Positions 33,949-56,845 of a DNA stretch of 64,000 bases are shown piece by piece. Position 1 is the first letter of the stretch. Each line of letters opens with the position of its first letter. Made by a program: the position numbers and the translations under genes. The notes under the pieces are model-generated. The model saw nothing but the letters and a program-made list of their open reading frames with translations, did not search any database and was not told where the DNA came from. This DNA is from Escherichia phage Eps7, in the sequence record NC_010583.1. One strand, 5' to 3'.

Positions 33949-34022
33949 TGGTACTCGGTGATAGAATCGAACTATCGCAACCGCCGTGTAAAGACGGGGT
34001 TCTCCCATTAAACTAACCGAGC
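33949..34022 (-). tRNA. tRNA-Val (TAC)
   Basis: manual fold: T-arm GATAGTTCGATTCTATC, anticodon stem CCGTC/GGCGG, loop TTTACAC, CCA. Confidence 0.6.
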
Positions 34023-34026
34023 AATT

Positions 34027-34104
34027 TGGTGGATTGCCTGGGATTCGAACCCAGAACTGACGGATTAAAGGTCCGCTACTCTTATCCAGTTGAGCTAGCA
34101 ATCC
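34027..34104 (-). tRNA. tRNA-Lys (TTT)
   Basis: manual fold: anticodon stem GCGGA/TCCGT, loop CCTTTAA, T-arm CTGGGTTCGAATCCCAG, CCA. Confidence 0.6.
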
Positions 34105-34490: not shown

Positions 34491-34744
34491 ATAAGCTCTT
34501 ATGAGCTTATCATCTATAATGAAGTTATCAGGAAGGTTTAAGGCAGCTAAAAACTTTATTAATTAGCATAGACTTCCTTAATAGAATAAACTTTTAAGTT
34601 AAGGTGATTAATACCAAATTCCGCCATCACTTCGTTTTCATCTTTACCGTAATGGGCTAGTGGATACTTCTTACGATCTTTGCTAGAACGTAGATCACTT
34701 ACTTTTAAACGAAATAATTTCATTTCGAAATCCTTCTATTAAAT

Positions 34745-34822
34745 TGGAAGCGGGTGCAGGAATCGAACCTACCTCTTTCTAGCTTATGAGACTAGCGATC
34801 TCTACCAGAGATCTAACCCGCA
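34745..34822 (-). tRNA. tRNA-Met (CAT), possibly initiator type
   Basis: manual fold: unpaired 1-72, anticodon loop CTCATAA, T-loop TTCGATT, CCA. Confidence 0.55.
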
Positions 34823-34828
34823 ATTGTT

Positions 34829-34907
34829 TGGTCTCCGTGGGAGGATTTGAACCCCCCGACCCTATCGCCCCAAACGAAACGCTCTGGCCAAACTGAGCTA
34901 CACGGAG
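34829..34907 (-). tRNA. tRNA-Pro (TGG)
   Basis: manual fold: acceptor CTCCGTG/CACGGAG, anticodon loop TTTGGGG, T-loop TTCAAAT, CCA. Confidence 0.55.
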
Positions 34908-34938
34908 AATATTCTTTGTTAACTCACTTTATAAATAT

Positions 34939-34967
34939 ATTATACAGAGAATTAAGCTAAATAGCAA
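34939..34967 (-). promoter_or_regulatory. sigma70-type early promoter upstream of tRNA pair
   Basis: ATTATA 34939-34944, TAGCAA 34962-34967, 17-bp spacer. Confidence 0.6.
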
Positions 34968-35212
34968 CTACATTTTTAATAAATTTACTTATTAGGTAAG
35001 TCACCGAGCTATCAACTCATGCTAGCGAAAGTTTGCGAGACCTTCTTTAAGTACTAGAACACACCCGCCGATGTGTCGGACTTACTTAATAAGTAAACTT
35101 TCGTTTACTTACACCTACCTGGTCGGGAGGATTTTCAGCGACTAGAACCGGCCGGAAACTCATCGCCTTGTTTATCTAGGAGTCCGTTCTCTAGGAAGCA
35201 GAAACCTAAATT

Positions 35213-35287
35213 TGGTGCGGTCGGAGGGAATCGAACCCTCAACTTCTGGTTGGCAACCAAAAAATTATACCTTTTAACTACGAACGC
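35213..35287 (-). tRNA. tRNA-Gly (GCC)
   Basis: manual fold: T-arm GAGGGTTCGATTCCCTC, anticodon stem TTTGG/CCAGA, loop TTGCCAA, CCA. Confidence 0.6.
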
Positions 35288-35302
35288 ATAATAAGTCAAT
35301 CT

Positions 35303-35440
35303 AGGCAGGACTTGAACCTGCTATCACTTGTGCGGATTTACGAGAACCATTCTTTCACTCGAATCGAACGAGCTTCTACCCTCGGCAAGCTGGTGTCCCC
35401 TCTCCACCACGCTAGAATGATAATTAATGCCTGCTCCTTT
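35303..35440 (-). other. unresolved tRNA-like region (two T-arm-like motifs, no encoded CCA)
   Basis: GCAGGTTCAAGTCCTGC and GCTCGTTCGATTCGAGT motifs; acceptor stems could not be paired by hand. Confidence 0.3.
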
Positions 35441-35500
35441 GAATCAAGAAGTCCACCCCGGACTTTGGGTCTTTGCAGTACATCACGCTGCTCTGATGTT

Positions 35501-35576
35501 TGGTACACCCACTAGGACTTGAACCTAGAACCCTCCGCTTAAGAGGCGGTAGCTCTAACCATTGAGCTATGGATGT
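35501..35576 (-). tRNA. tRNA-Lys (CTT)
   Basis: manual fold: T-arm CTAGGTTCAAGTCCTAG, anticodon loop CTCTTAA, CCA. Confidence 0.55.
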
Positions 35577-35652
35577 ATTATTATGTTTTGCAGTGCTCTA
35601 AATATAGACACTTCCCACGCGGTGGTTATCTATACCAGCGTCCTGCAAAAAT

Positions 35653-35729
35653 TGGCGCGACCGATGGGATTCGAACCCACATTTTCTCCCGTGACAGGGG
35701 AGTACCATTACCAAGCCAGCCCCGATCGC
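35653..35729 (-). tRNA. tRNA-Asp (GTC)
   Basis: manual fold: anticodon stem CTCCC/GGGAG, loop CTGTCAC, T-loop TTCGAAT, discriminator G, CCA. Confidence 0.65.
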
Positions 35730-36025
35730 ATAATTTATTTACTCAGTTTTGAGTTTTTCGATAGCTTCCTCAACCTCTTTTAGAGCTTCACGACGGGCAT
35801 TCTGTTGCTGCATATCTTGAATTAATGTCAGTTTTTGTTTTTAATTTCTTGATCCCAAACCTTAATATTATTAATCAGACTATCACGATCAGCTTCTAGT
35901 CGAGCAATTGCACGAGTTGTCATATCTATTTCCTCAGTTATTAATGAAAATGGTATCTGTGACTGAATTCAATATCAGTAATGATAGCTGGTTGGCTACC
36001 GGTTTACTTAACTCTACACAGAATA

Positions 36026-36108
36026 TGGCGGGCCGTGTAGGATTCGAACCTACGTTGTCTTTCGACATGGATTAACAGTCCACCGCCAAACCGCTTGGCT
36101 AACGACCC
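36026..36108 (-). tRNA. tRNA-Asn (GTT) with enlarged variable region
   Basis: manual fold: anticodon arm GTGGACTGTTAATCCAT, T-arm GTAGGTTCGAATCCTAC, CCA; 83 nt. Confidence 0.55.
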
Positions 36109-36115
36109 TAAAATT

Positions 36116-36191
36116 TGGACGACCGCATGAGATTCGAACTCACATAAGGAGGTTTTGCAGGCCTCCGCCTAAGCCATTCAGCCAACGGTCG
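36116..36191 (-). tRNA. tRNA-Cys (GCA)
   Basis: manual fold: anticodon loop CTGCAAA, discriminator U, T-loop TTCGAAT, CCA. Confidence 0.55.
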
Positions 36192-36369
36192 AGTTATCTT
36201 GCTTTTCGAGATTAGTAAACTCTAGATCTTTAGAATGTCCTATAGATCTAGCATAATAGCCATCTCCAGCATCATAGCCTGACTTACCACACTCACACAT
36301 CTTAAACTCTCTATAACGAGTGAAAATATGTTCAGAACCACAACACTTAAATTTAACTAACATTTTCAT
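36178..36369 (-). CDS. zinc-ribbon-like small protein
   Basis: 63-aa ORF with CC...CxC; 3' end overlaps tRNA by ~14 nt so stop may be misplaced. Confidence 0.4.
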   Translation of the reverse strand: MKMLVKFKCCGSEHIFTRYREFKMCECGKSGYDAGDGYYARSIGHSKDLEFTNLEKQDNSTVG

Positions 36370-36590
36370 TTAACACGCTCCGGTAAATCTTCGAGTTTAT
36401 ATTGAGTAGCCACATTAGCAGCATCTAGTAACAAACCCATATGTTTAAGAATCCTAGTGATAGCTTCGCCTTCTGCTTCTTCTACAAAAGTGCGTAGTTG
36501 AATGAAGTCAATACCACCATCCATACCAGAGAAAATGTTAAGTAAGCGAAGCATTACCAGCTTACGTTCTTTTAATTCTTGTTCTGCCAT
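36366..36590 (-). CDS. hypothetical protein
   Basis: track ORF 36366..36608 trimmed to Met 30 nt downstream of promoter -10. Confidence 0.5.
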   Translation of the reverse strand: MAEQELKERKLVMLRLLNIFSGMDGGIDFIQLRTFVEEAEGEAITRILKHMGLLLDAANVATQYKLEDLPERVK

Positions 36591-36619
36591 GTTGCTTCTC
36601 CAGTTCAATTTATGTAATA

Positions 36620-36648
36620 ATTATACAGAACTTTAAGGATTTAAGCAA
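36620..36648 (-). promoter_or_regulatory. sigma70-type early promoter
   Basis: ATTATA 36620-36625, AAGCAA 36643-36648, 17-bp spacer. Confidence 0.6.
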
Positions 36649-36928
36649 CTACATTTTTCAGAAATTTGATGCCTTTCTTTTTCTTCTTATACTTCCACGT
36701 TAATGGATTCTGTCGATTATGAACGCTTGAGATCTTTGTCTCGTCAAATTTCTTCAATACCATGTAATCACACGCCAACTGCTCTAGTGGAATGGTTTCT
36801 CCATCAAAAGCATAAACATAAGGCTGTTGACTAGCACGATAATGATAGACTTTGTTAACTCTACGTTTCAGCGACTTATCCGCGCAGTAAATAAAGAAGT
36901 TTTCAGGATGCATCAGCATCTCCTTCAA
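36641..36928 (-). CDS. hypothetical protein
   Basis: 95-aa ORF directly downstream of tRNA. Confidence 0.45.
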   Translation of the reverse strand: MKEMLMHPENFFIYCADKSLKRRVNKVYHYRASQQPYVYAFDGETIPLEQLACDYMVLKKFDETKISSVHNRQNPLTWKYKKKKKGIKFLKNVVA

Positions 36929-36930
36929 AT

Positions 36931-37005
36931 TGGTGCAACCTGTACGTAACGATCGTACCTCTTCTCCTTTTCAGGGAGACGCTAATCCATCTCAGCTAAA
37001 GTCGC
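36931..37005 (-). tRNA. tRNA-Phe (GAA)
   Basis: manual fold: anticodon stem TCTCC/GGAGA, loop CTGAAAA, CCA; atypical T-loop. Confidence 0.5.
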
Positions 37006-37011
37006 AAATAT

Positions 37012-37088
37012 TGGCAAACCTACTAGGACTCGAACCTAGACCGTACGGTTTTGGAGACCGACATGCTGTCCAGTAACACTCTAGGAAT
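37012..37088 (-). tRNA. tRNA-like, anticodon probably CCA (Trp); acceptor stem imperfect
   Basis: T-arm CTAGGTTCGAGTCCTAG, anticodon arm CGGTCTCCAAAACCG, CCA end; 5' acceptor pairs poorly. Confidence 0.4.
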
Positions 37089-37096
37089 GCAGAAAT

Positions 37097-37173
37097 TGGC
37101 GTCCTGTGCGGGGATCGAACCCGCAAATCCTACCTTGAAAGGGTAGTGACTTTACCAGTTTGTCTAACAGGAC
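37097..37173 (-). tRNA. tRNA-Glu (TTC)
   Basis: manual fold: acceptor GTCCTGT/ACAGGAC, anticodon stem CTACC/GGTAG, loop CTTTCAA, CCA. Confidence 0.7.
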
Positions 37174-37180
37174 TTAAATT

Positions 37181-37271
37181 TGGTGTTGGATGATGGAGTC
37201 GAACCACCCGAGACCCTTCCGAGTCGGCAGATTTACAGTCTGCTTCGCTACCTCTACGATACTAATCCAAC
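37181..37271 (-). tRNA. tRNA-Tyr (GTA), long variable arm
   Basis: manual fold: anticodon stem GCAGA/TCTGC, loop CTGTAAA, 91 nt, CCA. Confidence 0.65.
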
Positions 37272-37396
37272 ATATTTGAATGAAAAATAAGTCGGTTAAA
37301 CTCAAGGTGGAATATTTCAGGAAATCCTGACTTTACCCCTAAAAGCAACTCGCTTAGTTACTTCTCATTCAGATATGTTTTCCAAATTAGATAACT

Positions 37397-37426
37397 ATTA
37401 TATCAAGTTTTGAAGGACTGAGCAAG
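37397..37426 (-). promoter_or_regulatory. sigma70-type promoter overlapping a hairpin
   Basis: ATTATA 37397-37402, AGCAAG 37421-37426; inverted repeat CTGAGCAAG...CTTGCTCAG 37418-37450. Confidence 0.45.
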
Positions 37427-37461
37427 TCAAATTTTAAAGAACTTGCTCAGTGCTATATCAG

Positions 37462-37737
37462 TTACTCGAAGCTAGGAGTGACACTCAGTTTGAATGGAAG
37501 CTCGAACACTTCTTCATAATCATCATTGAGCGTAATTACACGACCTTCTAGCTTAGTCATGGTGATTTCGATATCAGCCTCTGCATCAGGAGCCATACCA
37601 GCTTCCACACATTTAGCTTTGACTTCCGGCAGAAGTTCTACATCGTAGAAATAAAGCCATTCAATCTCACCTTCCCAGCCACCCCAGGATTTACAAACAG
37701 CACTTTCAACACCAGTTGCAGTAACACGTTTTGACAT
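37462..37737 (-). CDS. hypothetical acidic protein
   Basis: 91-aa ORF 31 nt downstream of promoter. Confidence 0.5.
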   Translation of the reverse strand: MSKRVTATGVESAVCKSWGGWEGEIEWLYFYDVELLPEVKAKCVEAGMAPDAEADIEITMTKLEGRVITLNDDYEEVFELPFKLSVTPSFE

Positions 37738-37767
37738 TCGTTAACTCCTTCATCAATTTATATAACT

Positions 37768-37797
37768 ATTATAGCAGAAATCTTAAGTAAAAAGCAA
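37768..37797 (-). promoter_or_regulatory. sigma70-type early promoter
   Basis: ATTATA 37768-37773, AAGCAA 37792-37797, 18-bp spacer. Confidence 0.6.
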
Positions 37798-37827
37798 GTA
37801 CATTTTTAAAATTTCTGCTTGGAGGAG

Positions 37828-38034
37828 TTAAACTCCTGATTCTTCAGCCAGATCAAGCCCAACCAACGTGATTGCCATAATAGCCGCGCCATGTTCTTTC
37901 TCTCCTAGCTCTTTGGCTTGAGTGAGAATATTTAGGAACTGCTTTTGAAAATCTGCAACTTCTTCTGTCATGCCTGCTTCAGCAATAATTCCTTTCAGCA
38001 TAAAGCGTTGTGCCGTAATTTCAGGATTAGCCAT
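37828..38034 (-). CDS. hypothetical protein
   Basis: 68-aa ORF. Confidence 0.45.
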   Translation of the reverse strand: MANPEITAQRFMLKGIIAEAGMTEEVADFQKQFLNILTQAKELGEKEHGAAIMAITLVGLDLAEESGV

Positions 38035-38185
38035 TTATTATCTCCAGTTATTTAGAATGTAAGCCAAACTTAGGATCATAGCGATCGTAAGTCGTACCAT
38101 TAGTTGAAGCCTTGATGCTATGAAAACGACAGTACATAAATTTACGTAGTGCTTTCTTAATAGCTTTCATTTTATTTCCTTAATT

Positions 38186-38262
38186 TGGTAGGGGTGGTGG
38201 GATTCGAACCCACAAAACCTGAATTTTAAGTCCAGTACCTATGCCAATTCGATTACACCCCC
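38186..38262 (-). tRNA. tRNA with anticodon TAA (Leu-type) but short variable arm
   Basis: manual fold: T-arm GTGGGTTCGAATCCCAC, anticodon stem CTGGA/TTCAG, loop CTTAAAA, CCA; D-arm irregular. Confidence 0.45.
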
Positions 38263-38270
38263 ATGTAATC

Positions 38271-38608
38271 TTAGCGAATCTCTAAACCCTGGAAATATCG
38301 AGGGAATGGAGAGCCAACTTCAAAATTGATGCCCCAATTAAGTTCAACGAGTTCAGATTTATTAAGATCTAGGCCATTACCTTCAAAGATATAGCCGTAA
38401 ACCGCAGGGAACATAGCTGCTAGATCTTCCATATCGGAATGAGCATTGTGTTCTTCACGGAACTGCTCAACTCTTCAATAGAACTTTTCTAGGAGACTCA
38501 GGTACGATGAACGTTACCACATCAGTAGAATCATCGGTACGATACACCGTAGCTTGGAACAAGCCAACACCTAAAAGGTTTATTGCCGGAGTAGTAAAAA
38601 TATCCATC
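38271..38608 (-). CDS. hypothetical protein, frame interrupted near 38470
   Basis: two adjacent protein-like frames (MDIFTTPAINLL... and ...EQFREEHNAHSDMEDL...) each below track threshold. Confidence 0.35.
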
Positions 38609-38794
38609 TTAGCCTCGCTCAATGTCTAGACAAATTGCATATTCAGGGTTGATACCAGTACCTTTACATGTAGGACATTCCCATTCTCTACAGAAAATAT
38701 CCCCAGGTTCTGCATCATCCTGCCTACCACTACCATGACAGTCCTTACACCGACATTCTTCTAATGCTTTCTTCATTTCATAGAATCTAGACAT
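38609..38794 (-). CDS. zinc-finger-like small protein
   Basis: 61-aa ORF with CxxC...CxxC. Confidence 0.5.
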   Translation of the reverse strand: MSRFYEMKKALEECRCKDCHGSGRQDDAEPGDIFCREWECPTCKGTGINPEYAICLDIERG

Positions 38795-38811
38795 ATAGTC
38801 TCCTAGTTAAT

Positions 38812-38889
38812 TGGTGGCTCCCGGAGGATTCGAACCTACCTACCTTTCGCTTATGAGGCGACGGCTCATACCAAATGAGCTTGAGAACC
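38812..38889 (-). tRNA. tRNA with anticodon CAT (third CAT tRNA)
   Basis: manual fold: D-stem GCTC/GAGC, anticodon loop CTCATAA, T-loop TTCGAAT, CCA. Confidence 0.55.
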
Positions 38890-38894
38890 AAATT

Positions 38895-38988
38895 TGGAGG
38901 AAGATGCCAGATTCGAACTGGCACACCGTGTCTCCACAGCTACTGGCTGTTTAGCAAACAGCTCCCTTACCTTTAGGGTTAATCTTCC
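38895..38988 (-). tRNA. tRNA-Ser (GCT), long variable arm
   Basis: manual fold: acceptor GGAAGAT/ATCTTCC, anticodon loop TTGCTAA, T-arm GCCAGTTCGAATCTGGC, 94 nt, CCA. Confidence 0.6.
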
Positions 38989-39002
38989 GAATTTATGAAT
39001 AT

Positions 39003-39031
39003 ATTATACAGAAAATTTCGGCATTAAGCAA
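39003..39031 (-). promoter_or_regulatory. sigma70-type early promoter upstream of tRNA pair
   Basis: ATTATA 39003-39008, AAGCAA 39026-39031, 17-bp spacer. Confidence 0.6.
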
Positions 39032-39039
39032 GTGAAATT

Positions 39040-39336
39040 TTACTGAACATTGCACTGATATACTTGTTTGATACGTGTCACTGACTTCTTAGTTGGGTTG
39101 ATAGAAGAACCCTGCCACCAACGTGATTCTGAGCTGAGAACAGCCCCAGGAACAGCTTGTTCTTTTGGCAGAACAATATCAAAACACTGTTCACCCATAT
39201 TATCTTTAATGTGCGACCAAATGTCTAGAGTAAATCGTTCTAGCTTATTACAAACTTGAACTTGACAAAGTTCCTGTTGTGGAGCAGCAAATACAGAAGT
39301 AGATACTAGAGTCAATGCAAGTACAATGCGTTTCAT
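39040..39336 (-). CDS. secreted/periplasmic protein (signal peptide)
   Basis: track ORF trimmed to MKRIVLALTLVSTSVFA start; MREESNM prefix is a leader artefact. Confidence 0.5.
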   Translation of the reverse strand: MKRIVLALTLVSTSVFAAPQQELCQVQVCNKLERFTLDIWSHIKDNMGEQCFDIVLPKEQAVPGAVLSSESRWWQGSSINPTKKSVTRIKQVYQCNVQ

Positions 39337-39366
39337 ATTTGATTCCTCTCTCAAATTTATAAATAT

Positions 39367-39394
39367 ATTATACAGAAATTTTCTATATAAGCAA
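39367..39394 (-). promoter_or_regulatory. sigma70-type early promoter
   Basis: ATTATA 39367-39372, AAGCAA 39389-39394, 16-bp spacer. Confidence 0.55.
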
Positions 39395-39411
39395 GGTAAA
39401 AATTTATGTAT

Positions 39412-39434
39412 ATAGCCCTCTAAGCGAGGGCTAT
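39412..39434 (-). terminator. hairpin ATAGCCCTC-loop-GAGGGCTAT downstream of pnuC-like gene
   Basis: perfect 9-bp stem; T-rich tract is weak. Confidence 0.4.
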
Positions 39435-39441
39435 AACTACT

Positions 39442-40134
39442 TTATTTGTTAACGCGTACAAAGTATCCTTTATAGGCTCCCATAATAGAGTTACCTAAGA
39501 ATACTAGCCACATTGCTAGGATTGCATAAGATGCACCTGTAGATTGAGCAGTTACAAGCCAAATGTACACAGTACCAATGTTAATAGCAATCCAAATCAG
39601 CCATTGTTCAGCATATTGTTTGACCATAAGCCACATAGCAATCACACTACCTACCGCAGTAAATGCATCCAACATTGGGAATGGATCAGCCGTAGTAGCA
39701 AGGAAACTACCATAACCTAACGTGGCTACTGCTAAAATCCCTAGAGTCAGCAAAGCTTGAGCTTTTGTCAGAACTTTAGTTGGAACATCCGGCAGATTAC
39801 TTGGCTTATTTTTATGCCATAAGTACATTCCATAAAACTGCATAGGAACGTAGTATAGCAGGTTTAGTGCAGCGTTACCATAAAGATCTGCGTTTAAAGC
39901 TGTAATACCATATGTAAGAACACCCACTAAGCCCCAAATATAGTTGGAAACACGTCCTTTTGCAACCAGAATAACACAAACCACATTGGTTATTGCAGTA
40001 GCCCAATCTAGAGCTGTACCATTATAGTTTGCTAAACTAATAAAGGCGACTGCTATAAACAGCCACAGATATTCCAGAGGTTTCCAGTTTTTAAAGTCAT
40101 TTACGAGATAGTTAGTCATATTAAAACTCTCCAA
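39442..40134 (-). CDS. pnuC: PnuC-like nicotinamide riboside transporter
   Basis: 230-aa multi-TM ORF overlapping the end of the NadR-like gene; size and topology typical of PnuC. Confidence 0.55.
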   Translation of the reverse strand: MESFNMTNYLVNDFKNWKPLEYLWLFIAVAFISLANYNGTALDWATAITNVVCVILVAKGRVSNYIWGLVGVLTYGITALNADLYGNAALNLLYYVPMQFYGMYLWHKNKPSNLPDVPTKVLTKAQALLTLGILAVATLGYGSFLATTADPFPMLDAFTAVGSVIAMWLMVKQYAEQWLIWIAINIGTVYIWLVTAQSTGASYAILAMWLVFLGNSIMGAYKGYFVRVNK

Positions 40135-41176
40135 AGATAAAGTGATGAATCAGCCAGTCTACTGCGTTTACTGCTTCGTCCATACGAACTTTGTAGTCCG
40201 GAGAGTCGATGTAAACAGTACGCCCTTCAGGGAACTGATTTGGAAATTCTTTCTTCATCTGCTCGAACAGTTCAGAAGTAATTGAACGATCGGAGTTAAT
40301 ACGTAAACCATCATCTACCCACTTGACAGTAGGCGCTAGAACAATTACTAAATCGTAATGTTCTTCTTTTGCAATTGCTGTAACCACAGGGTTCTTACTA
40401 TGTTCATAAAGTCTGTGGTAGAACTCAGTAATAAAAGCATTTGTATCCACAAACATGATCTTATTTGCAGTACGTTTTGCTTCAAACTCTAGCTCTTTGT
40501 GTCTGAACGCAATTTTACTATAGTCTTCGCTGGTAAGCAGATTTTCGTTACCAACTAGATCAACTTCACAATACGTTCGGCCATATTCTTTTACCCACGA
40601 AGTGTTGTATAGCTTCGCAAGGTATTTTGTTAAAGTAGTCTTTCCTGAGCTTTCAGTCCCAATGATTACAACCTTACGCACGTAATCTTTACGAACTACG
40701 CTAGGAAGAAACTCCCAATACTTCATAAGATCATTACGAATCATTGTAGCTGAGATTGGAACACGAGTCCGATCAGAATCTACAATATAATGACCAAACT
40801 TCGGCAGATATTTCTTATATTCTGCATCATAGTCTAGTTCGCTAGAGAAAATGGTGATCTCAGGCAAATGTCCGTAATTTTCATTAAGGATTCTAGCATA
40901 TTCCGGCCAACCATTCGGATATTCAGGAATATCATCTTCAATAATGTACTCTACCGAAATGTGCTCAATATCCGCGTAAGTTTGTTCTAACCAACGAAGT
41001 CGATTCTTTAACTGTAATACTTCCTGATCACGTGTGTTCTGCTTATCCAGCCAACGATTATCATGACTAACTACAACAATAACTCGTTCACACATAGTTG
41101 CTGCTGTGTTTATTAGGTTAATATGACCACGCGTTAATGGCGCGAACTTACCAATTACTAGACCAGTCTTAATCAT
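40121..41176 (-). CDS. nadR: NadR-like bifunctional NMN adenylyltransferase / ribosylnicotinamide kinase
   Basis: N-terminal nucleotidyltransferase motif GKFAPLTRGHINLI and C-terminal Walker A GTESSGKTT; start trimmed to MIKTGLV. Confidence 0.65.
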   Translation of the reverse strand: MIKTGLVIGKFAPLTRGHINLINTAATMCERVIVVVSHDNRWLDKQNTRDQEVLQLKNRLRWLEQTYADIEHISVEYIIEDDIPEYPNGWPEYARILNENYGHLPEITIFSSELDYDAEYKKYLPKFGHYIVDSDRTRVPISATMIRNDLMKYWEFLPSVVRKDYVRKVVIIGTESSGKTTLTKYLAKLYNTSWVKEYGRTYCEVDLVGNENLLTSEDYSKIAFRHKELEFEAKRTANKIMFVDTNAFITEFYHRLYEHSKNPVVTAIAKEEHYDLVIVLAPTVKWVDDGLRINSDRSITSELFEQMKKEFPNQFPEGRTVYIDSPDYKVRMDEAVNAVDWLIHHFIFGEF

Positions 41177-41205
41177 ATTTGATTCCTCTCTCAAATTTAT
41201 AAATA

Positions 41206-41234
41206 TATTATACAGAGAATTTAGCGTTCAAGCA
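41206..41234 (-). promoter_or_regulatory. sigma70-type early promoter
   Basis: ATTATA 41206-41211, AAGCAA 41229-41234, 17-bp spacer. Confidence 0.6.
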
Positions 41235-41390
41235 ATCGAATTTTTAAACTTTTTAGTGGAAAAATCTCAAGGCATTTAGTGGTAGCACGTTGTTGCTACA
41301 ATAATAGTATATGTATTACTAAAGTAAATAAAGAATTAAATACTAAAGACCTTAGTTGAATAACTTATGGGCTTTTCTTTTGCCTTAAAT

Positions 41391-41427
41391 ACAGAAAAGC
41401 CCGCGCTCTCGGAGGAAACGCGGGCTT
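41391..41427 (-). terminator. rho-independent terminator
   Basis: AGCCCGCG-loop-CGCGGGCT stem followed on minus strand by TTTTCT. Confidence 0.65.
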
Positions 41428-41450
41428 GGTTCGAAGATTACGTGTAACTA

Positions 41451-42395
41451 TTACTTGTTACGCATATCCATGATCATTTGACCATCGTAGCCAGTACCAA
41501 CAACAGTCTGCGGTACACCACCTTGTATTTTTCAGCACGAAGCATTTCAAACTTCCAGCTGCTTCCAACGAATCATTTCAGGAGTAATGGTACGTTGCAG
41601 CGCGGCGTTAGCTTCAGCTTCTTTCTTAGCTGCGTACAGTTTAGCATCTGCGTCACGTTCGTTAGCTACTGCCATGTTTTCACGAGCAGAACGATCAGCT
41701 TCAGCTTGCTTAACTTTCTGCTGTGCTTCTTGTTCAACACGAGCCAATTCAGCTTTAGCGGCGTTAACTTGTTCTTCACGAACTTTTGTGTTTTGTACCT
41801 GTTCCATGATTACAGGTGGCAGAGTAATATCCTGAAGGAATACTTGCTTAACCGTGTAACCATAAGGACGCGCGTACTCTTCTACTTCTTGCTGAATAGC
41901 AGTTTGCAGTTGAGCCTGAATCTTAGCGTCGAACAGATCTTGTGCTTTTGGTACAGACTTACCAAACTCACGAATCGTAGATAGCATCTTCTCTTCAACG
42001 TACTTGTTCAGAGCTTGATCCTGAGTACCTGCGTTAACACGGTTCATAGGAGCTTTAGCACCATCAAACTGCAACATAACGGTAATGTCAACAGTGGACT
42101 TAAACTTATCCTGGCTAGGAACCTGAAGTTTATCCAGTTTCATGGAAATATCTTTCGTACTAAAAGTATCAAAAGAAGCAAATGGGTTAACAATATGGAA
42201 GCCTGGCAATACAGGATTAGGGCTAACTTTACCCAGGAAGGTTTGGGTCTTAACAGTACCATCCTGAACAACTGTGTAGGAATTGAGAGCCAGAATAAGA
42301 GCGCCAAGACCAACTACAGCACCAACACCCCAACGTTTGATAGTGCGAATTACTTTTTGCTCAGAAGTCAGTTCTTTAGTGTTTTTAGTAAACAT
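41451..42395 (-). CDS. SPFH/band-7 (stomatin/prohibitin-like) membrane protein, C-terminus frame-shifted
   Basis: 282-aa ORF with N-terminal TM and long Gln/Ala coiled-coil region; protein-like frame continues to stop near 41451. Confidence 0.5.
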
Positions 42396-42406
42396 ATATT
42401 TCCTTA

Positions 42407-42607
42407 TTATTTAGAAGAGTTAGCTACTACAGTTACTTTAGTTGCAGAAATAAACAGGCTAGCATCCACAGCAAATTCAGGAGCTTTGATATCTCCATTA
42501 TGAAATATGACTATACCGGAGACTACTTCAAATGCTAGTGCTGTAACATCGGTGGTATTTACTTGTGAATGTTCACCTACTACTTTTACTATATATCGTG
42601 TTTTCAC
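42407..42607 (-). CDS. hypothetical protein
   Basis: 66-aa ORF downstream of tRNA. Confidence 0.45.
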   Translation of the reverse strand: MKTRYIVKVVGEHSQVNTTDVTALAFEVVSGIVIFHNGDIKAPEFAVDASLFISATKVTVVANSSK

Positions 42608-42633
42608 TTTATTTTCCTAGCAGTTAATAAAAT

Positions 42634-42708
42634 TGGCCGAGGTGACAGGATTCGAACCTGCATAAAGGAATTTAGAAGACTCCTGCCTATCCCTTAGACT
42701 ACACCCCG
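42634..42708 (-). tRNA. tRNA-Arg (TCT)
   Basis: manual fold: acceptor CGGGGTG/CACCTCG, anticodon stem GGAGT/ATTCC, loop CTTCTAA, T-arm GCAGGTTCGAATCCTGT, CCA. Confidence 0.6.
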
Positions 42709-50682: not shown

Positions 50683-51537
50683 TTACACCGTAAATGGATA
50701 TGCAATAGCAGGATGGTGTTCATAGCCACGAACAGTAAAATCATCCTTACTTACCCACGTTAATACATCATCCAAAGTTCTAATATTTGGATTGATTTCT
50801 AAAGTAGGAGGTGCAAAAGGTTCACGATCGAATTGCTTGTGCTCCATCAGAACATTATACTGATCTTCATAGATATGAAGATTAATAATCTTTTGACGAG
50901 CAATACCTGGCTTAAGACCTGTAATCTGTGCCATAATAGCTAGAAGTGCATAGCATTGCACCATATTAAATACTTGGCCCAGCAAGAAATCATTAGACCT
51001 CTGGAAAGAGTTTAGGTATAGTGTATCACCTAAAATAGAGAATTGATGGGTATGCATACACGGACGTAGGCATCCTTTACGAAATTCCCCACGGGTTCCA
51101 AAAGTTAAAATTTCTCCACGATCGTCAATCCCTCTTTTCAAATTATGATAGACTTTGGCTAACTGATCAAATACCATACCATCAGAATTAGTCCAATGAC
51201 GTCCTTGAACACCATAGACTCGTCCCATATCATCCTCGCCTTTACGGAATGGATTACCTAGCCAGGCAATATTTTCATTTGCATTAGCATTCCATGTATT
51301 AACACCAATAGCGCGGAATTGTGCTGCTGAGTCGTACCCACGGAGATATCCGATCATTTCCATTATTGCTTGTTTAGCAAATGCTTTACGAGTAGTTACT
51401 AGCGGCAGTTCTCCTGCTCCTACGTTAAAGGTAAAGTCTGCATCAATAATGGTTAGGCAACGAACCCCTGTTCTAGGATTCGTTACCCATACACCCTCTT
51501 CAAGAATACGTTTTCCAGTTTCAATATATTGCTTCAT
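50683..51537 (-). CDS. thyA: thymidylate synthase
   Basis: 284-aa ORF with catalytic-Cys region [10 protein letters not shown]; adjacent to DHFR and RNR genes. Confidence 0.8.
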
Positions 51538-52062
51538 TTAAATATCACCAATTCTTGTAAGAATGAAAGCGTTTTATCTGCATTCTGTCCTGCCACATAG
51601 TCCATTCTAGTTGCCATTGAATTATAAGTAATATGATGATGCAGATGTACATCAGCAGATAATGGTGTGGCTGAAGTAATAGTAGAGATATACGCCATAT
51701 CTAGATGATTTTTTGACATACATTTCAAGAAGCAGAGTTGCTCCCCCTAATACTACAGTTACCTCTTCCTTGAGAAAATCAGGCAGACGGTATCCAATGT
51801 TGCTTATGCGTGTAGCTGATCTTATAGAGTTCGGTAGTGGTCTATTTGCATAAATAAATAGGTCAGAATCTCCTAGTATTCTTTTTTGCAGAGTCTCAGG
51901 GAATGCTAACCAAGTTCCTGCTCCTACAATAATATTGTCAGGTGCCAGAGAATCCAATGTAGCATAGAAGATATCTAGTTCTTCTTTGAAAGAACCCCAG
52001 GGGAGCTTACCATTGAGGCCGAACTCCCCATTCGGCCCAGTTGCATAGATTGCTGCTATCAT
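51534..52062 (-). CDS. dihydrofolate reductase, frame interrupted near 51700
   Basis: N-terminal MIAAI...GKLPW DHFR motif; two overlapping frames 51652..52062 and 51534..51728. Confidence 0.6.
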
Positions 52063-53207
52063 TAGAACATATCCTCAAATTCGTTGCCAAGATCTTTCAG
52101 AGTATCAGCAGATGTTTCTGTTACTTGACCTACACGATACGCTGCGCCAATCTGAATCTCTTGCGGAGCAGGTTGTAAAGATGTAGTATCCAACCAGTTC
52201 ATAATCCACGGAATAGGGTTCTTAGTAATTACAGGTAAGTGGCTTGGCCATTCTACACCAATGTGCATAAATGCGTTACGTCCTACAAAGTAAAGGTATT
52301 CTTCAAGCAGTTCTGCGTTCAAACCAATCAGACTGCGGCCTTTAAAGATAAAGTGGCCCCATTCAATCTCAGTTTTCAGAGTTTTTAGGAGTTGTGTTGG
52401 TGCTTTAGCTAATGCTTCATCTACCAGATCTTTATCAAATTGCTGGAACATAATCTGGATGATAGCTTTAGACATTTGAGTATGTAGAGCTTCATCTTTA
52501 GCGATTAATTGCAGGTTCTTAGCAATACCTTGCAGAATATCGTTCTCTGCTAGAGCAAAGGTACATGCAAAGGATGCGTAGAACTGCATTGCTTCCAGAC
52601 CGTAGATTGCAAAGTAAGCATCTAACAGCTTAGCCTGAGTTTCACGTTTAACTTCAGGGAACTCAGTTTCTGGATAAGTATTATCACCACGATGATCACG
52701 TACTGCAAGGAAATACTGACCTAACAGATACAATTCATCAAACAGTTCAACAGAATCTGCGATACGTGCAAATGCTTCTTGGTTTTTAGTTACAGAATCA
52801 ATAAATTCTGCTGGATCAGTCAGAACGTTACGAATAATATTACTATACGCACGGCTGTGCAGATCTTCGAAGTAGCTCCACTGCTTGAGCATACCCTCCA
52901 ATTCAGGACGGCTTACAAGCGGCATAATAGCTGCTTCAGGAGCACGGCTAATGAAAGAATCTGTTTGGGTCTGCCATGCTAAGTTCAGGAGAGTAATTTC
53001 CTGAATATCACGCGGAAGGTTTGGCCATTGTTTCTTATCGGCTTCCAGACTGATTTCAGTTTCAGTCCAAAATTGAGAACGTTGCAGAAGTGCTAGACGC
53101 TCAAGTTCAGGATGTGCTACACGAACGTAATCTGCGATACCAAGAGAATCGCCCAGGAAAAGGTCAGCGTTAGTATGATCCCAATTCAGGTTTAGTAAAG
53201 TAGTCAT
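52062..53207 (-). CDS. nrdB: ribonucleotide reductase small subunit
   Basis: 381-aa ORF with ferritin-like DEALH region; sits between DHFR and nrdA. Confidence 0.75.
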   Translation of the reverse strand: MTTLLNLNWDHTNADLFLGDSLGIADYVRVAHPELERLALLQRSQFWTETEISLEADKKQWPNLPRDIQEITLLNLAWQTQTDSFISRAPEAAIMPLVSRPELEGMLKQWSYFEDLHSRAYSNIIRNVLTDPAEFIDSVTKNQEAFARIADSVELFDELYLLGQYFLAVRDHRGDNTYPETEFPEVKRETQAKLLDAYFAIYGLEAMQFYASFACTFALAENDILQGIAKNLQLIAKDEALHTQMSKAIIQIMFQQFDKDLVDEALAKAPTQLLKTLKTEIEWGHFIFKGRSLIGLNAELLEEYLYFVGRNAFMHIGVEWPSHLPVITKNPIPWIMNWLDTTSLQPAPQEIQIGAAYRVGQVTETSADTLKDLGNEFEDMF

Positions 53208-53238: not shown

Positions 53239-53267
53239 ATTATAGCAAATCTGGTAGCGATTAGCAA
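53239..53267 (-). promoter_or_regulatory. sigma70-type early promoter upstream of nrdB
   Basis: ATTATA 53239-53244, TAGCAA 53262-53267, 17-bp spacer. Confidence 0.6.
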
Positions 53268-53273: not shown

Positions 53274-53756
53274 TTATAAACTATCAAGCTCCAATAGTTT
53301 AGCATCGCGCCATTCTATAGCATCCTCTAATTCTTTAAATGTTTTAGTATGTTTTACACCTTTCCTAGCTATTTGGACTTGATAAGATCCACTTGCTTTT
53401 TGGTGTATATTTTTAATACCTAACTTATTGTCCTTATGTGCTCCAACGTTCTTTCCATTACTAAATCTGTTAGAGGCTAGTAAATTAATTGCTCTATTAT
53501 CATGACGTATTCTATTATCATGATCTACTTCTTTTGGGATGTACCCATGCGTAATATAGAATGCTAGGATATGTGCGTAGTATTTTGTACCTCTTACCTG
53601 CATTACTATGTATCCTGAGCATTTTTCCAAAGAGCCTGCCTCTTTGCCTGCAAACTTAGTATTAAATGATTTATCTTCTCTAGGTTTGTGGGTAAAGATT
53701 CCGGTTTCTGGATTATAGTCAAATAACTCAGCTATTTCTTTGTATTTTTCTTCCAT
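53274..53756 (-). CDS. HNH homing endonuclease
   Basis: 160-aa ORF with HNH motif EVDHDNRIRHDNRAINL; located between nrdA and nrdB. Confidence 0.7.
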   Translation of the reverse strand: MEEKYKEIAELFDYNPETGIFTHKPREDKSFNTKFAGKEAGSLEKCSGYIVMQVRGTKYYAHILAFYITHGYIPKEVDHDNRIRHDNRAINLLASNRFSNGKNVGAHKDNKLGIKNIHQKASGSYQVQIARKGVKHTKTFKELEDAIEWRDAKLLELDSL

Positions 53757-53811
53757 AATCTAAAATTACAGCCATTATAGGCCTAATAAAGGGGCTTTCG
53801 CCCCTTATTTA

Positions 53812-56204
53812 TTATAATTGACAACCACCAGATGCGCATCCAGCAGCAGCTTCCTCTCCTGCACCTCCACCATTTTCAGTGTTGAAGTTTGCATAATAAA
53901 AGGTTTTCCAACCGTACTTAACAGCAGTCATAAAGTCACGAACTACTACTGGGCCGGGAATGATTTCATTCTCGAACTTGGTGTAGTCATAGTACATATT
54001 CGTACTGATAGACTGGCTGAAGAATTTCTGCATGGTTGCTACCCATTTGATCCACTCGATACGATCTACATCATAAGCCAGTTTATAGCTCATTAATGTA
54101 TCCCAATCAGTTGCACCTGGAGCAATTGCAATTACTTTATTAACTGCACTACCCTTGATAGATACGATCTTACGGGGCGGTTCGATAGAGTTAGTAACAC
54201 CTAGCAGTACAGAGGAACTTTCACCTGGCATCTGAGCAGTCAGAACAGAGTTGCGCATACCATATTTCAGAATATCTGCACGCAGAGATTCCCAATCCAT
54301 TTCTAGACCTACAGTTACCAGTTCATCAACAGTTTTCTTGTACGTGTCGATTACCAGAGTTCCTTGCGAAGGCTTAGTACGATTAAACCAGTCACATGCA
54401 CCTTGTTCTTTAGCCAGACGTACAGAGGCTTTATGTAGGAAGTAGGACAGCTTTTCAGCTTCACGGTGAATCCAGTTACGTGCTTCAACACCTTCGTAAG
54501 CCAAACCTTCTGCTGCCATTGCACCTGCTGCGTTCATCAGACCAATACCAACGTTACGACGTTTCTTAGCCGTGTACTTCCATAGTTGGGAATGGGTAAT
54601 CCTGAATCTCGATGATTGTATCAACGAATTTCAGAAGGATGTAGCAAGTTTTCTCCCATTCAGCCAGAGATTCCATGCGGCCTAGTACAACACCACCTAA
54701 GTTACACAGAGATACTTCACCAATATCTTCTGGACGCATATCGTCTAACTGATCTTGGGTTTTATACAGTTCCGTAACGTGATGGAATGGACGGGTGGCT
54801 GAGTAATTCAACACAAAAGGGTTGGTCATACGAATCGGGTCAAGGAAGTTACCATGACGGTTAGATTCACCAATGTGATGAGCATACATACGCCCTGTTT
54901 CCATACGGATACGTAACCAAGTATCTAGGATTTCTTTTGCAGAGATTCTAGGAGCTGCTGGAATTGTTTTTCCTTCGTGGTCGATCTTTGTAAGAGAAGC
55001 CACACGTTTCTCCGCTGCCACGTAGATTTCTTCAAACTTAGCCTCATCTTCACCATAAAACGCTTCATGAACTTCTGGTGCGTAGAAGTAGGACATTAGC
55101 GTAATATCTTCGTTTTTCAGGTAACGTTTTAACAGAAGGTTGTTAAAGCTCAGAGAATAATCCATCTTATCGATTTTATTCTCGTCTGTAGCACGTTGCT
55201 GCTTAACCTGCATCAACTGAATGATTTCAGGATCGAAGTATGGATAAGACACAGTAGCAGAACCGCCACGGGTTTGCTGAGTGTTAGCTTTTACTGATCG
55301 GTCAATGTGTCGATAATATGGCAGTTTTCCGGAATGCGGGAATGCCCCATTTCGCACCGGATCAGCAATTGATCGGCTTTCAAGATGATACCCGATTCCC
55401 GCTCTGGCTGCGACCATTTTGAAGACGATGTGCTCGGCTGTGTCGATTGAATCCAGCGTGTCAGTGGAATCCACGAGACAGCAACTAGCAAATCCACGGT
55501 CACTAGAGCGCAGGCCAACCAGTGGCGGCGTAGGAACGTTGATTTTGTGGAGCGACATTGCATTGTAGAGGTCGATTGCATCTAGGATTGTCCAGTTAGG
55601 TTGAGATAACATCGCCATTGCCATACCCATGTAGGCAAACTGCGGGGTTTCATAAATTTCACCAGTTGCAATATTACGACGAGAATACTTGTCGAAGAAC
55701 TGTTTCAGTCCACCACTGGTGAATAAACGATCGCGATCATGATCAATAACTTGGTTCAGAGCGTCAAACTGATCATCGCTAATCCATGCACTCATGTCTT
55801 CCCAGCGCCAACACGAACCATATGATCGTGGAAGAAACGCAGAGAAGGGGTTCAAAGGAATCATATAGGCGTTTACGCATCTGCGCAAGACGTAATTCCT
55901 TTGCTACAGTATCATATGCTGGGTTGTCTTTGATAAGACCTTCAGCGGCTTTAATTAACACATCTTGGAGGGTATCGGAATCTACAACACCTTTTGGTAG
56001 ATTTTTCTGGGCAGACATAACGACGGCAGACCAACTTACGTCAGTTGCTTTACATGCCCATGCAGCCCAATCATTGAGTTTTTCAGGAGCAAAGTCCTGA
56101 ACAGTACCGTCACGTTTAATTACTTTTTCAATACTATGGCTCATTGGGGTTTCCTTTTTGTAGTTATCAGGATTTAGGAAATATTCTACTTTGTTTTGGG
56201 TCAT
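53812..56204 (-). CDS. nrdA: ribonucleotide reductase large subunit, frame interrupted twice
   Basis: three consecutive ORFs (55779..56204 with ATP-cone VIKRDGT, 54566..55888, 53812..54624 ending in Cys-rich tail); breaks near 55800-55880 and 54570-54620. Confidence 0.75.
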
Positions 56205-56511: not shown

Positions 56512-56845
56512 TTACACCTTCCCCATATCCTTAAAGATATCGTAGAATGCTTTAGACTCCGGTGAGCGAACGTTGTCGATCAGTTCGATCATAGAGAAAG
56601 GAGAGTTTTCGTACTTCTCATAGACTTCCATAAGAAGTGCTAGACCTGAATCACCCTTGATGTCTTTCTGAGCTATATCCCCACAGATAATTAAACGACA
56701 ATCTTGTCCTACACGAGTCAGGAGACAGATCATTGCTTCAACGGAGATATTCTGAGCTTCATCGACAATTACATAGGAGTTGTTGAATGTTGCCACGCTT
56801 TCTTGAACCATTGCGGTTCTCTCTTTTTTGACGTGCTTTTCCCAT
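56512..56845 (-). CDS. PhoH-like P-loop ATPase fragment (Walker B only)
   Basis: VIVDEAQN and CGDIAQKD motifs; probable start MGKARQKRE upstream with frame shift at an A6 run. Confidence 0.45.

What the first reader, a model, noticed from the sequence alone, without database searches (positions are those of the whole stretch)
53274..53756. HNH homing endonuclease inserted between nrdB and nrdA
A free-standing HNH endonuclease gene with its own GNRA hairpin boundary separates the two aerobic RNR subunit genes. This is a typical homing-endonuclease insertion site in phage nucleotide-metabolism operons and marks a mobile element.
Basis: partly seen in the sequence, partly recalled or inferred. 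Interest (0 to 1): 0.4.

Follow-up and report, generated by a model that had tools for sequence, protein, structure and literature searches.

The report
Homing endonuclease gene between RNR genes
A small selfish nuclease gene sits between the two ribonucleotide-reductase genes of a T5-like phage; it looks intact, but identical copies are already annotated in public phage genomes, so it is an ordinary finding.

Summary
ORF 53274..53756 (minus strand, 160 aa) is an HNH_3 endonuclease (Pfam 36.2 bits, cut-off 24.8; PHROG 99, E=1e-49). Its catalytic D78-H79...N91...N100 residues are invariant among homologues. The predicted fold best matches I-HmuI, followed by an AP2-like DNA-binding domain.

The window is a T5-like phage (Demerecviridae). 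The gene lies between nrdA and nrdB, which are read nrdA -> HEG -> nrdB.

About 46 public T5-like records carry this gene and 249 have an empty 106-bp spacer. Another 75 and 29 records carry two other HNH genes at a second point in the same spacer.

The insert is a cassette:
- a diverged last ~91 nt of nrdA (78% identity against 99-100% around it);
- a GC hairpin that replaces the ancestral UUCG terminator;
- a gene with no promoter or Shine-Dalgarno sequence.

dN/dS of 0.03-0.06 says the protein is maintained.

One correction: the GNRA loop is not conserved. Orthologous cassettes have UCUC or GUAU loops, so the stem is what matters, probably as a leaky nrdA terminator.

This is already known: identical proteins are annotated as homing endonucleases, and the nrdA-nrdB hot spot is published for T5-like and T-even phages. 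Cleavage and homing are untested. Interest is low.

The parts
53274..53756 (-). Free-standing HNH homing endonuclease gene, 160 aa. It has an N-terminal beta-rich region, an HNH_3 catalytic core (D78, H79, N91, N100, N103) and a C-terminal AP2-like DNA-binding domain.
   Evidence: ORF. Pfam HNH_3; PHROG 99. Invariant residues. AF2 model with pLDDT 84. Foldseek matches to I-HmuI and AP2 domains. dN/dS of 0.02-0.07 in all three thirds of the gene. GC is 33.7% against 42-44% in the flanking genes.
53757..53788 (-). Leader between the hairpin and the HEG start codon. No Shine-Dalgarno sequence and no conserved promoter.
   Evidence: Sequence. The promoter scan finds nothing here. The TATAAT-like hexamer is not conserved in FFH1, FGS017 or L032.
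53789..53806 (-). GC-rich hairpin (GGGGC-GAAA-GCCCC plus UUUAUU) that replaces the ancestral nrdA UUCG terminator. Probably a leaky terminator or attenuator ahead of the HEG.
   Evidence: The stem is kept, with a compensatory added base pair, in FGS017, while the loop varies (GAAA, UCUC, GUAU). The leader plus hairpin is found only in records that also carry the HEG (38 records).
53812..53902 (-). Last ~91 nt of nrdA: a diverged patch linked to the HEG. It contains a Trp->Phe codon just before the YY pair, synonymous changes and an extra Ala codon. It is either a co-converted flank or the candidate target/immunity region.
   Evidence: This patch is 78% identical to the HEG-less phages 118970_sal2 and Seabear, which are 99-100% identical to the window in the preceding 600 nt and in nrdB. 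The Phe codon is present in 9 of 9 HEG+ alleles, against 4 of 22 HEG-less alleles.
53239..53267 (-). Sigma-70-type nrdB promoter (TTGCTA-17-TATAAT with an upstream TG). It lies immediately downstream of the HEG stop codon and marks the undisturbed downstream boundary of the insertion.
   Evidence: It is identical in empty and occupied alleles and is annotated as a promoter in the T5 and AKFV33 records.
52062..53207 (-). nrdB, the class Ia RNR small subunit and the downstream neighbour.
   Evidence: Its first 1000 nt are 98-100% identical to HEG-less relatives.
53812..56204 (-). nrdA, the class Ia RNR large subunit and the upstream neighbour. In this window it reads in three frames because of single-base indels.

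Best explanation
This is a free-standing homing endonuclease gene (HEG) of the HNH_3 / His-Me-finger type, with an AP2-like DNA-binding tail. It sits in the nrdA-nrdB spacer of a T5-like phage.

Shown here:
- The gene is intact and under strong purifying selection.
- It is present in roughly a tenth of T5-like genomes, at exactly the same place.
- It is part of a discrete cassette: the last ~91 nt of nrdA in a diverged version, a GC hairpin in place of the ancestral UUCG terminator, then a gene with no promoter or Shine-Dalgarno sequence. The cassette ends right at the untouched nrdB promoter.

Inferred mechanism:
- The gene is transcribed at a low level by read-through from nrdA past the weak hairpin (UUUAUU tail in place of UUUUUCUUU).
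- In a mixed infection with a HEG-less T5-like phage, the enzyme nicks or cuts the HEG-less allele in or near the nrdA 3' end or its terminator.
- Recombinational repair from the HEG+ genome then copies the cassette and the adjacent nrdA markers into the recipient.
- The HEG+ allele is protected because the terminator is replaced and the nrdA 3' end carries substitutions.
For: Family:
- Pfam HNH_3 scores above the curated cut-off; PHROG 99 matches at E=1e-49.
- D78, H79, N91, N100 and N103 are invariant across 12 homologues with as little as 30% identity.
- The AF2 model (pLDDT 84.4) has I-HmuI 1u3e as its best PDB match (probability 0.99). AP2 domains follow at rmsd 1.6 A.

Maintained function:
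- dN/dS is 0.03-0.06 overall, with dS up to 1.2, and 0.00-0.07 in each third of the gene.

Mobility signature:
- 46 of 391 records matching the spacer query hold the gene. 249 records have the empty junction.
- Empty spacers are nearly identical across the two genera.
- The HEG occurs in both Epseptimavirus and Tequintavirus backgrounds.
- Identity to otherwise 99-100% identical HEG-less phages drops to 78% only in the last 100 nt of nrdA.
- FFH1, a Tequintavirus, shares that patch at 91%, against 76-78% for HEG-less Tequintaviruses.
- GC falls to 34% over the gene.

Expression:
- There is no promoter-like site between the nrdA stop and the HEG start, whereas a 10/12 promoter follows the HEG.

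Precedent:
- T4 mobE occupies the same nrdA->HEG->nrdB position, is promoterless, has a terminator found only in mobE+ phages, and nicks nrdB of HEG-less T2 (PMC2790892).
- HEGs are the main source of differences among T5-like genomes (PMC10644984).
- The nrdA-nrdB spacer was noted as a hot spot in the T5-like phage AKFV33 (PMC3326045).
Against: - No cleavage, nicking or inheritance data exist for this protein. None could be produced here, and I found none in the searched literature.
- HEG divergence between genera (dS 0.47 to FFH1, 1.2 to FGS017) is no smaller than that of nrdB (0.53-0.62). There is thus no sign of recent cross-genus transfer, and long vertical residence with occasional loss would also fit.
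- The structural match to I-HmuI has a weak E-value (5e-3) and a TM-score of 0.43.
- Pfam finds no AP2 domain by sequence, even at E<=10.
- The diverged nrdA patch could simply be hitch-hiked donor sequence rather than an immunity determinant. The Phe codon also occurs in 4 HEG-less alleles.
- The lack of a ribosome-binding site leaves the mode of translation unexplained.
Confidence: 0.85

Rival explanations
1. The gene is a resident, no longer mobile HNH protein kept for another job. Candidates are a nuclease used against competing phages or host DNA, or a DNA-binding regulator acting through its AP2-like domain. On this reading its patchy distribution reflects repeated loss rather than homing.
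For: - Strong purifying selection shows that the protein is useful to something, but it does not say to what.
- HEG divergence tracks or exceeds flanking-gene divergence between genera, as expected for old vertical inheritance.
- Wilson and Edgell themselves allow that MobE might act indirectly (PMC2790892).
Against: - The catalytic residues are all intact.
- The sharp 91-nt diverged flank, shared across genera, is hard to produce by simple deletion of the gene from an ancestral HEG+ state.
- The empty spacer carries a complete, different terminator that is nearly identical in both genera, which argues for insertion/replacement rather than loss.
- Only about 10% of relatives carry the gene, so it is dispensable.
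Confidence: 0.1
2. The hairpin is a functional GNRA-tetraloop RNA element, for example a remnant of a group I intron or a tetraloop-receptor partner, and it defines the boundary of the mobile element.
For: In this window the loop reads GAAA on the coding strand, and the hairpin sits at the upstream edge of the HEG.
Against: - The loop is UCUC in mar003J3 and S113, and GUAU in FGS017, while the stem is kept with a compensating extra pair.
- Rfam finds no intron or any other RNA family in the nrd region.
- The sequence boundary of the cassette lies about 91 nt further upstream, inside nrdA.
- The hairpin occupies exactly the place of the ancestral UUCG terminator.
Confidence: 0.03
3. The ORF is a chance open frame or a decayed pseudogene.
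For: There is no Shine-Dalgarno sequence and no promoter. One public record annotates only a 109-aa version.
Against: - A 160-codon open frame in 34% GC DNA.
- Profile matches at E=1e-49.
- dN/dS is 0.02-0.06 even in the first 51 codons.
- The gene has the identical 483-nt length in all eight orthologues examined.
Confidence: 0.01

Closest known systems
Orthologues annotated in public T5-like phage genomes: phagemcphageface, chee130_1/saus132, S113, SP76, phiR2-01 g086, FFH_1 ORF95, and mar003J3 (labelled 'F-TflVI')
   Same: The proteins are 92-100% identical and 160 aa long. They share the same position between the nrdA terminator and the nrdB promoter, and the same hairpin-plus-leader cassette.
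   Different: Essentially nothing differs; the window carries one more copy. The window has Asn95 where mar003J3, S113, FFH1 and FGS017 have Asp. None of these orthologues has been characterised experimentally as far as the searched literature shows.
T5 HegH (putative P-TflVIII, T5.095) and the AKFV33 ORF96 / Th1-type HNH endonuclease
   Same: They share the HNH_3 family and the overall architecture. Identity to the window protein is 34% (E=9e-24) and 42% respectively. They occupy the same nrdA-nrdB spacer and have the same C-terminal 'KTF..LE.AIEWRD' module.
   Different: They are paralogues, not orthologues. They are inserted about 40-70 nt further downstream, between the nrdB promoter and the nrdB start codon, and they keep the ancestral UUCG terminator. 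Their diverged flank is the first ~130-200 nt of nrdB rather than the end of nrdA.
T4 MobE (free-standing HNH endonuclease between nrdA and nrdB)
   Same: The genomic niche and gene order are the same (nrdA -> HEG -> nrdB). MobE is promoterless and depends on upstream transcription. It has a terminator found only in HEG+ genomes. Its target lies in a conserved part of an adjacent RNR gene, with protective polymorphisms in the HEG+ allele (PMC2790892).
   Different: There is no detectable sequence similarity (BLASTP E=0.92). MobE belongs to a different Pfam HNH family (PF01844 against PF13392) and to a different phage family. The shared niche therefore reflects independent invasions. In T4 the nrdB promoter lies inside mobE; here it lies outside the HEG.
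I-HmuI (Bacillus phage SPO1 intron-encoded HNH nicking endonuclease, PDB 1u3e)
   Same: It is the best structural match to the predicted model over 153 aligned columns (probability 0.99). It has the same extended N-terminal beta region followed by the HNH core.
   Different: I-HmuI is intron-encoded, whereas this gene is free-standing. Identity is only 21%, and phmmer finds no sequence-level match. I-HmuI ends in a helix-turn-helix DNA-binding domain (my own knowledge, not checked here), while this protein's tail matches AP2 domains.

Membership tests
HNH_3 (PF13392) / His-Me finger endonucleases | Profile score above the curated gathering threshold | tested here: met
   36.2 bits against a cut-off of 24.8, E=4.7e-9, residues 59-100. 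PHROG 99 matches at E=1.2e-49.
HNH_3 (PF13392) / His-Me finger endonucleases | Catalytic Asp-His, structural Asn and metal-binding Asn all present | tested here: met
   D78, H79, N91, N100 and N103 are invariant in a 12-sequence alignment reaching down to 30% identity. Their spacing (H+12, then +9) equals that of I-HmuI H75/N87/N96, which I recall from the literature and did not recheck.
HNH_3 (PF13392) / His-Me finger endonucleases | beta-beta-alpha-metal fold resembling solved HNH homing endonucleases | tested here: met
   AF2 model at pLDDT 84.4. The best PDB match is I-HmuI 1u3e, probability 0.99. The E-value is only 5e-3 and the TM-score 0.43, so this support is moderate.
HNH_3 (PF13392) / His-Me finger endonucleases | Metal-dependent DNA nicking or cleavage | not testable with these tools
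   Needs purified protein and a substrate.
Free-standing homing endonuclease gene | An independent ORF in an intergenic spacer, not inside an intron or intein | tested here: met
   nrdA and nrdB are colinear with HEG-less homologues. Rfam finds no intron in the region.
Free-standing homing endonuclease gene | Presence/absence polymorphism at one fixed site among close relatives | tested here: met
   46 records are occupied and 249 are empty. The boundaries are identical in all 8 occupied alleles aligned.
Free-standing homing endonuclease gene | Co-conversion or divergent tract in the flanking conserved gene | tested here: met
   The last ~91 nt of nrdA is 78% identical, against 99-100% in the neighbouring segments. 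HEG+ phages of another genus share the patch.
Free-standing homing endonuclease gene | Site-specific cleavage of the HEG-less allele and super-Mendelian inheritance in mixed infection | not testable with these tools
   Requires phage crosses and in vivo or in vitro mapping.
AP2-like DNA-binding domain (HNH-AP2 architecture) | Sequence match to Pfam AP2 | tested here: not met
   No Pfam hit for the C-terminal 51 residues or for the whole protein, even at E<=10.
AP2-like DNA-binding domain (HNH-AP2 architecture) | Three-stranded sheet plus helix fold that superposes on AP2 domains | tested here: met
   Arabidopsis TEM1 AP2 domain 7et4: probability 0.99-1.0, rmsd 1.6 A over 38 residues. The lambda Int N-terminal domain also matches. 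Predicted secondary structure is E117-119, E125-131, E134-140, H143-159.
T4 MobE family | Sequence homology to MobE | tested here: not met
   BLASTP E=0.92. MobE hits PF01844, not PF13392.
T4 MobE family | Location between nrdA and nrdB, transcribed in the same direction | tested here: met
T5 HegH (P-TflVIII) orthologue group | High identity and the same insertion point (between the nrdB promoter and the nrdB ATG) | tested here: not met
   34% identity. The window gene is inserted upstream of the promoter.

The most novel reading that the evidence does not exclude
The enzyme may recognise the nrdA sequence that encodes the essential radical-transfer tyrosine pair. In the window this is KT-F-YY; the pair corresponds to Y730/Y731 of E. 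coli NrdA by my own numbering from memory. The Trp->Phe codon immediately before that pair, found in all 9 HEG+ alleles, would then be the immunity substitution.

More broadly, three unrelated or paralogous HNH genes compete for one 106-bp spacer. Each is tied to a diverged patch that stops at an essential radical-transfer codon block: the YY pair at the end of nrdA for this gene, and the FW block at the start of nrdB for the T5 HegH type. This mirrors T4 MobE. T5-like phages would then be a natural system for studying competition between homing endonucleases at a single locus.
Probability: 0.25. Interest if true: 0.4.

Novelty: already known. Interest (0 to 1): 0.2.

Why it matters
It matters little on its own. 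It is one more copy of an annotated selfish gene in a well-known hot spot.

Three practical points follow:
- Correct gene calling: the full 160-aa ORF is the real one, not the 109-aa call in one public record.
- Mosaic boundaries in T5-like genomes at this locus are expected to coincide with the gene.
- The occupied, empty and alternatively occupied alleles are a ready-made natural experiment. They could be used to map the target of an uncharacterised HNH-AP2 endonuclease and to study how several homing genes share one spacer next to essential RNR codons.

Tried and rejected
- **phmmer against PDB sequences** found nothing at E<=1. The link to I-HmuI came only from the predicted structure.
- **Pfam at E<=10** on the separate N- and C-terminal pieces found nothing. 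The AP2-like assignment therefore rests on fold alone.
- **MAFFT alignment of the occupied against the empty spacer** misplaced the upstream flank. I defined the boundaries by direct inspection of anchored sequences instead.
- **The large protein search** returned only 7 homologues, so the structure prediction used a shallow alignment.
- **The IMG/VR pattern scan** returned 13 loci.
- **T5 genome-nicking enzyme:** rejected, because only about 10% of T5-like phages carry the gene.
- **Terminase-associated HNH:** rejected because of the genomic context (a nucleotide-metabolism cluster) and the family (HNH_3).
- **Homologue of T4 mobE:** rejected.
- **Promoter in the leader:** rejected. The scan finds none, and the TATAAT-like hexamer is not conserved.
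- **Recent cross-genus transfer:** not supported by dS values.
- **Other copies in the window:** tblastn with the window HEG and four related HNH proteins from T5-like phages finds no second copy of this family in the window.

Full report
**What is there**

The window is part of a T5-like phage genome (Demerecviridae, closest to Epseptimavirus). The 4.3-kb stretch around the finding matches hundreds of Salmonella, Escherichia and Klebsiella T5-like phages. The best matches reach 98% identity (SB6, chee130_1/saus132, phagemcphageface).

On the minus strand the gene order is:
- nrdA (53812..56204);
- a hairpin (53789-53806);
- the ORF of the finding (53274..53756, 160 aa);
- a sigma-70-type promoter, TTGCTA-17-TATAAT (53267..53239);
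- nrdB (52062..53207), then frd and td.

**Is it an HNH endonuclease?**

Yes.
- Pfam HNH_3 scores 36.2 bits against a curated cut-off of 24.8 (E=4.7e-9).
- PHROG 99 'HNH endonuclease' matches nearly the whole protein (E=1.2e-49).
- I aligned the protein with seven database homologues and four paralogues from T5-like phages, with identities down to 30%. The residues that make an HNH active site are invariant: D78, H79, N91, N100 and N103.
- An AlphaFold2 model from a shallow alignment is reasonably confident (mean pLDDT 84.4).
- The model's best match in the PDB is the HNH homing endonuclease I-HmuI (1u3e, probability 0.99, 153 aligned columns). The E-value is weak (5e-3) and the TM-score is 0.43.
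- The C-terminal sheet-plus-helix (residues ~113-159) superposes on plant AP2 domains at 1.6 A rmsd and on the lambda Int N-terminal domain.
- Sequence methods alone see neither I-HmuI nor AP2.

The protein is therefore an HNH-plus-AP2-like endonuclease, an architecture common among phage-encoded HNH endonucleases.

**Is the gene alive?**

Eight orthologues all have an uninterrupted 483-nt ORF. Against the most distant ones, dS reaches 0.47 (FFH1) and 1.2 (FGS017), while dN/dS is 0.03-0.06.

The first 51 codons have dN/dS of 0.02-0.06, although one public record leaves them out of its gene call (chee130_1, 109 aa). The full-length protein is therefore made and maintained.

**Is it an insertion?**

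HEG-less relatives from both genera were compared: Bas26, 118970_sal2 and Seabear in Epseptimavirus, and SSP1 and SP15 in Tequintavirus. They have a 106-107-bp spacer that is almost identical in all of them. It consists of the nrdA stop codon, a UUCG-loop terminator (GGAGAUC-UUCG-GGUCUCC plus UUUUUCUUU), the nrdB promoter and the nrdB Shine-Dalgarno sequence.

In every allele that carries this gene, about 37 bp holding that terminator is replaced by about 535 bp. The replacement holds a different GC hairpin, a 32-nt leader and the ORF. Its stop codon abuts the untouched promoter.

Counts of records in the phage collection:

| State of the nrdA-nrdB spacer | Records |
|---|---|
| Empty junction | 249 |
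| This gene | 46 |
| T5 hegH / P-TflVIII type | 75 |
| Th1 / AKFV33 ORF96 type | 29 |

By protein identity of at least 90%, 42 records carry this gene. The hairpin-plus-leader segment is found in 38 records, always together with the gene.

The hegH and Th1/AKFV33 types are paralogues, 34% and 42% identical to the window protein. They are inserted at a different point, between the nrdB promoter and the nrdB start codon, and they keep the ancestral terminator.

**Footprint of homing**

The HEG-less phages 118970_sal2 and Seabear are 99-100% identical to the window through the 600 nt of nrdA that precede the patch. They are also 98-100% identical through the first 1000 nt of nrdB. Identity falls to 78% only in the last 100 nt of nrdA.

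The patch starts at the codon before a conserved Tyr-Tyr pair. There the window has ACC-TTT-TAT-TAT-GCA and HEG-less relatives have ACT-TGG-TAC-TAC-GCT. The patch continues with mostly synonymous changes and one extra Ala codon up to the stop codon.

FFH1, a Tequintavirus carrying the gene, shares the patch at 91%. HEG-less Tequintaviruses are at 76-78%.

All 9 distinct HEG+ alleles have Phe at that codon. Among HEG-less alleles, 18 have Trp and 4 have Phe. Fisher's exact test gives p=3.5e-5, but the genomes are not phylogenetically independent.

The YY pair aligns with the KTLYY motif of a solved class Ia RNR alpha chain (7mdi). By my own numbering from memory it corresponds to Y730/Y731 of E. 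coli NrdA, the radical-transfer tyrosines.

A short, sharply bounded, largely synonymous patch in a conserved gene next to a free-standing HEG is what co-conversion and target-site immunity look like in T4 (PMC2790892). The patch does not show which base pairs are recognised.

GC content drops to 34% over the gene, against 42-44% in the flanks.

**The hairpin**

In the window, chee130_1, SB6, SP76 and FFH1 the loop is GAAA. In mar003J3 and S113 it is UCUC. In FGS017 it is GUAU, with one extra compensated base pair.

The stem is therefore conserved and the GNRA loop is not. The hairpin takes the place of the ancestral terminator but has a poorer U-tract (UUUAUU).

No promoter-like site lies between it and the ATG. 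The TATAAT-like hexamer there is not conserved, and there is no Shine-Dalgarno sequence.

The most economical reading is a leaky nrdA terminator that lets a little transcript run into a poorly translated, potentially toxic gene. This is inferred by analogy with T4 mobE, which is promoterless and has a terminator found only in mobE+ phages (PMC2790892).

**Comparison with what is known**

Identical or near-identical proteins are already annotated as 'homing endonuclease' or 'HNH endonuclease' in about 40 public genomes.

The literature already covers the general points:
- HEGs as the main variable in T5-like genomes (PMC10644984).
- The nrdA-nrdB spacer as a HEG hot spot in T5-like phages (PMC3326045, which describes the paralogous AKFV33 ORF96).
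- The same hot spot in T-even phages (PMC2790892).

T4 MobE shares the niche and the gene order but not ancestry at any detectable level. BLASTP gives E=0.92, and MobE belongs to Pfam PF01844 rather than PF13392. These are independent invasions of the same spacer.

I found no experimental work on this particular endonuclease.

**Verdict**

- The hairpin is a replaced terminator whose loop is not conserved.
- The cassette reaches about 91 nt into nrdA.

The finding is ordinary and already annotated. Endonuclease activity, the target site and homing remain inferences.

**Limits**

- Record counts include GenBank/RefSeq duplicates.
- The structural model rests on 8 sequences.
- The association of the Phe codon with the gene is not corrected for shared ancestry.

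Noticed in passing
window 53812-56204 (indels at 54577, 55803, 55848; also 54795, 54806, 54818-54819): nrdA reads in three frames (ORFs 55779..56204, 54566..55888 and 53812..54624). The cause is single-base indels that all four close relatives compared lack. They lie mostly in or next to short base runs, which looks like sequencing or assembly error rather than a real pseudogene.
   Followed up: partly
window 51534-52062 (indels at 51709 and 51624-51626); td at 51092/51099: The dihydrofolate reductase gene is also split (ORFs 51652..52062 and 51534..51728) by a window-specific 1-base insertion and a 3-base deletion. td carries a compensated pair of 1-base indels 7 nt apart.
   Followed up: partly
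window ~56787 (ORF 56512..56811): phoH is truncated to its C-terminal 99 codons. A 419-nt deletion relative to chee130_1 and SP76 is responsible; those phages have a 753-nt gene.
   Followed up: no
window ~56224 (upstream of nrdA) and ~52062 (frd/nrdB junction): Two further homing-endonuclease sites of the T5-like nucleotide-metabolism cluster are empty in this window. SP76 and mar003J3 carry a ~490-nt HNH gene upstream of nrdA. mar003J3 also carries hegJ_1 (P-TflX) between frd and nrdB.
   Followed up: partly
L004 (T5), L014 (SB10), L015 (HildyBeyeler): first ~130 nt of nrdB: Phages with the T5 hegH-type endonuclease share a distinctive, mostly synonymous nrdB 5' haplotype: 94-98% identical to each other and 76-84% to the others. 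It ends at a nucleotide block, encoding SQFWTETE, that is invariant among the eight genomes compared. This mirrors the MobE target region in T4 nrdB (PMC2790892).
   Followed up: partly
L008 (Salmonella phage SB6) 2708-3609: SB6 has a 298-bp tandem direct duplication inside the cassette, running from the leader to codon ~89 of the endonuclease. It gives a truncated copy followed by a full copy. It may be real or an assembly artefact.
   Followed up: partly
L014 (SB10), L028, L029, L031: Four alleles lack this endonuclease and keep the ancestral terminator, yet carry the HEG-linked Phe codon. SB10 also carries the extra Ala codon in nrdA. These could be resistant alleles or alleles that lost the gene.
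   Followed up: no
L002 (mar003J3) first 200 nt of nrdB: mar003J3 has a unique nrdB 5' end, only 73-76% identical to every other genome compared, including several amino-acid changes. Its origin is unknown.
   Followed up: no
L001 (chee130_1) 2774-3103: The public annotation of the orthologue in chee130_1 (MF431736) calls only 109 aa, starting at Met52. The upstream 51 codons are conserved and under purifying selection, so that gene call is too short.
   Followed up: yes
window 29714-42708, minus strand: Rfam finds 27 tRNA genes, which is the T5-type tRNA cluster. tblastn with the window HEG and four related HNH proteins from T5-like phages finds no second member of this HNH family anywhere in the window.
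   Followed up: no
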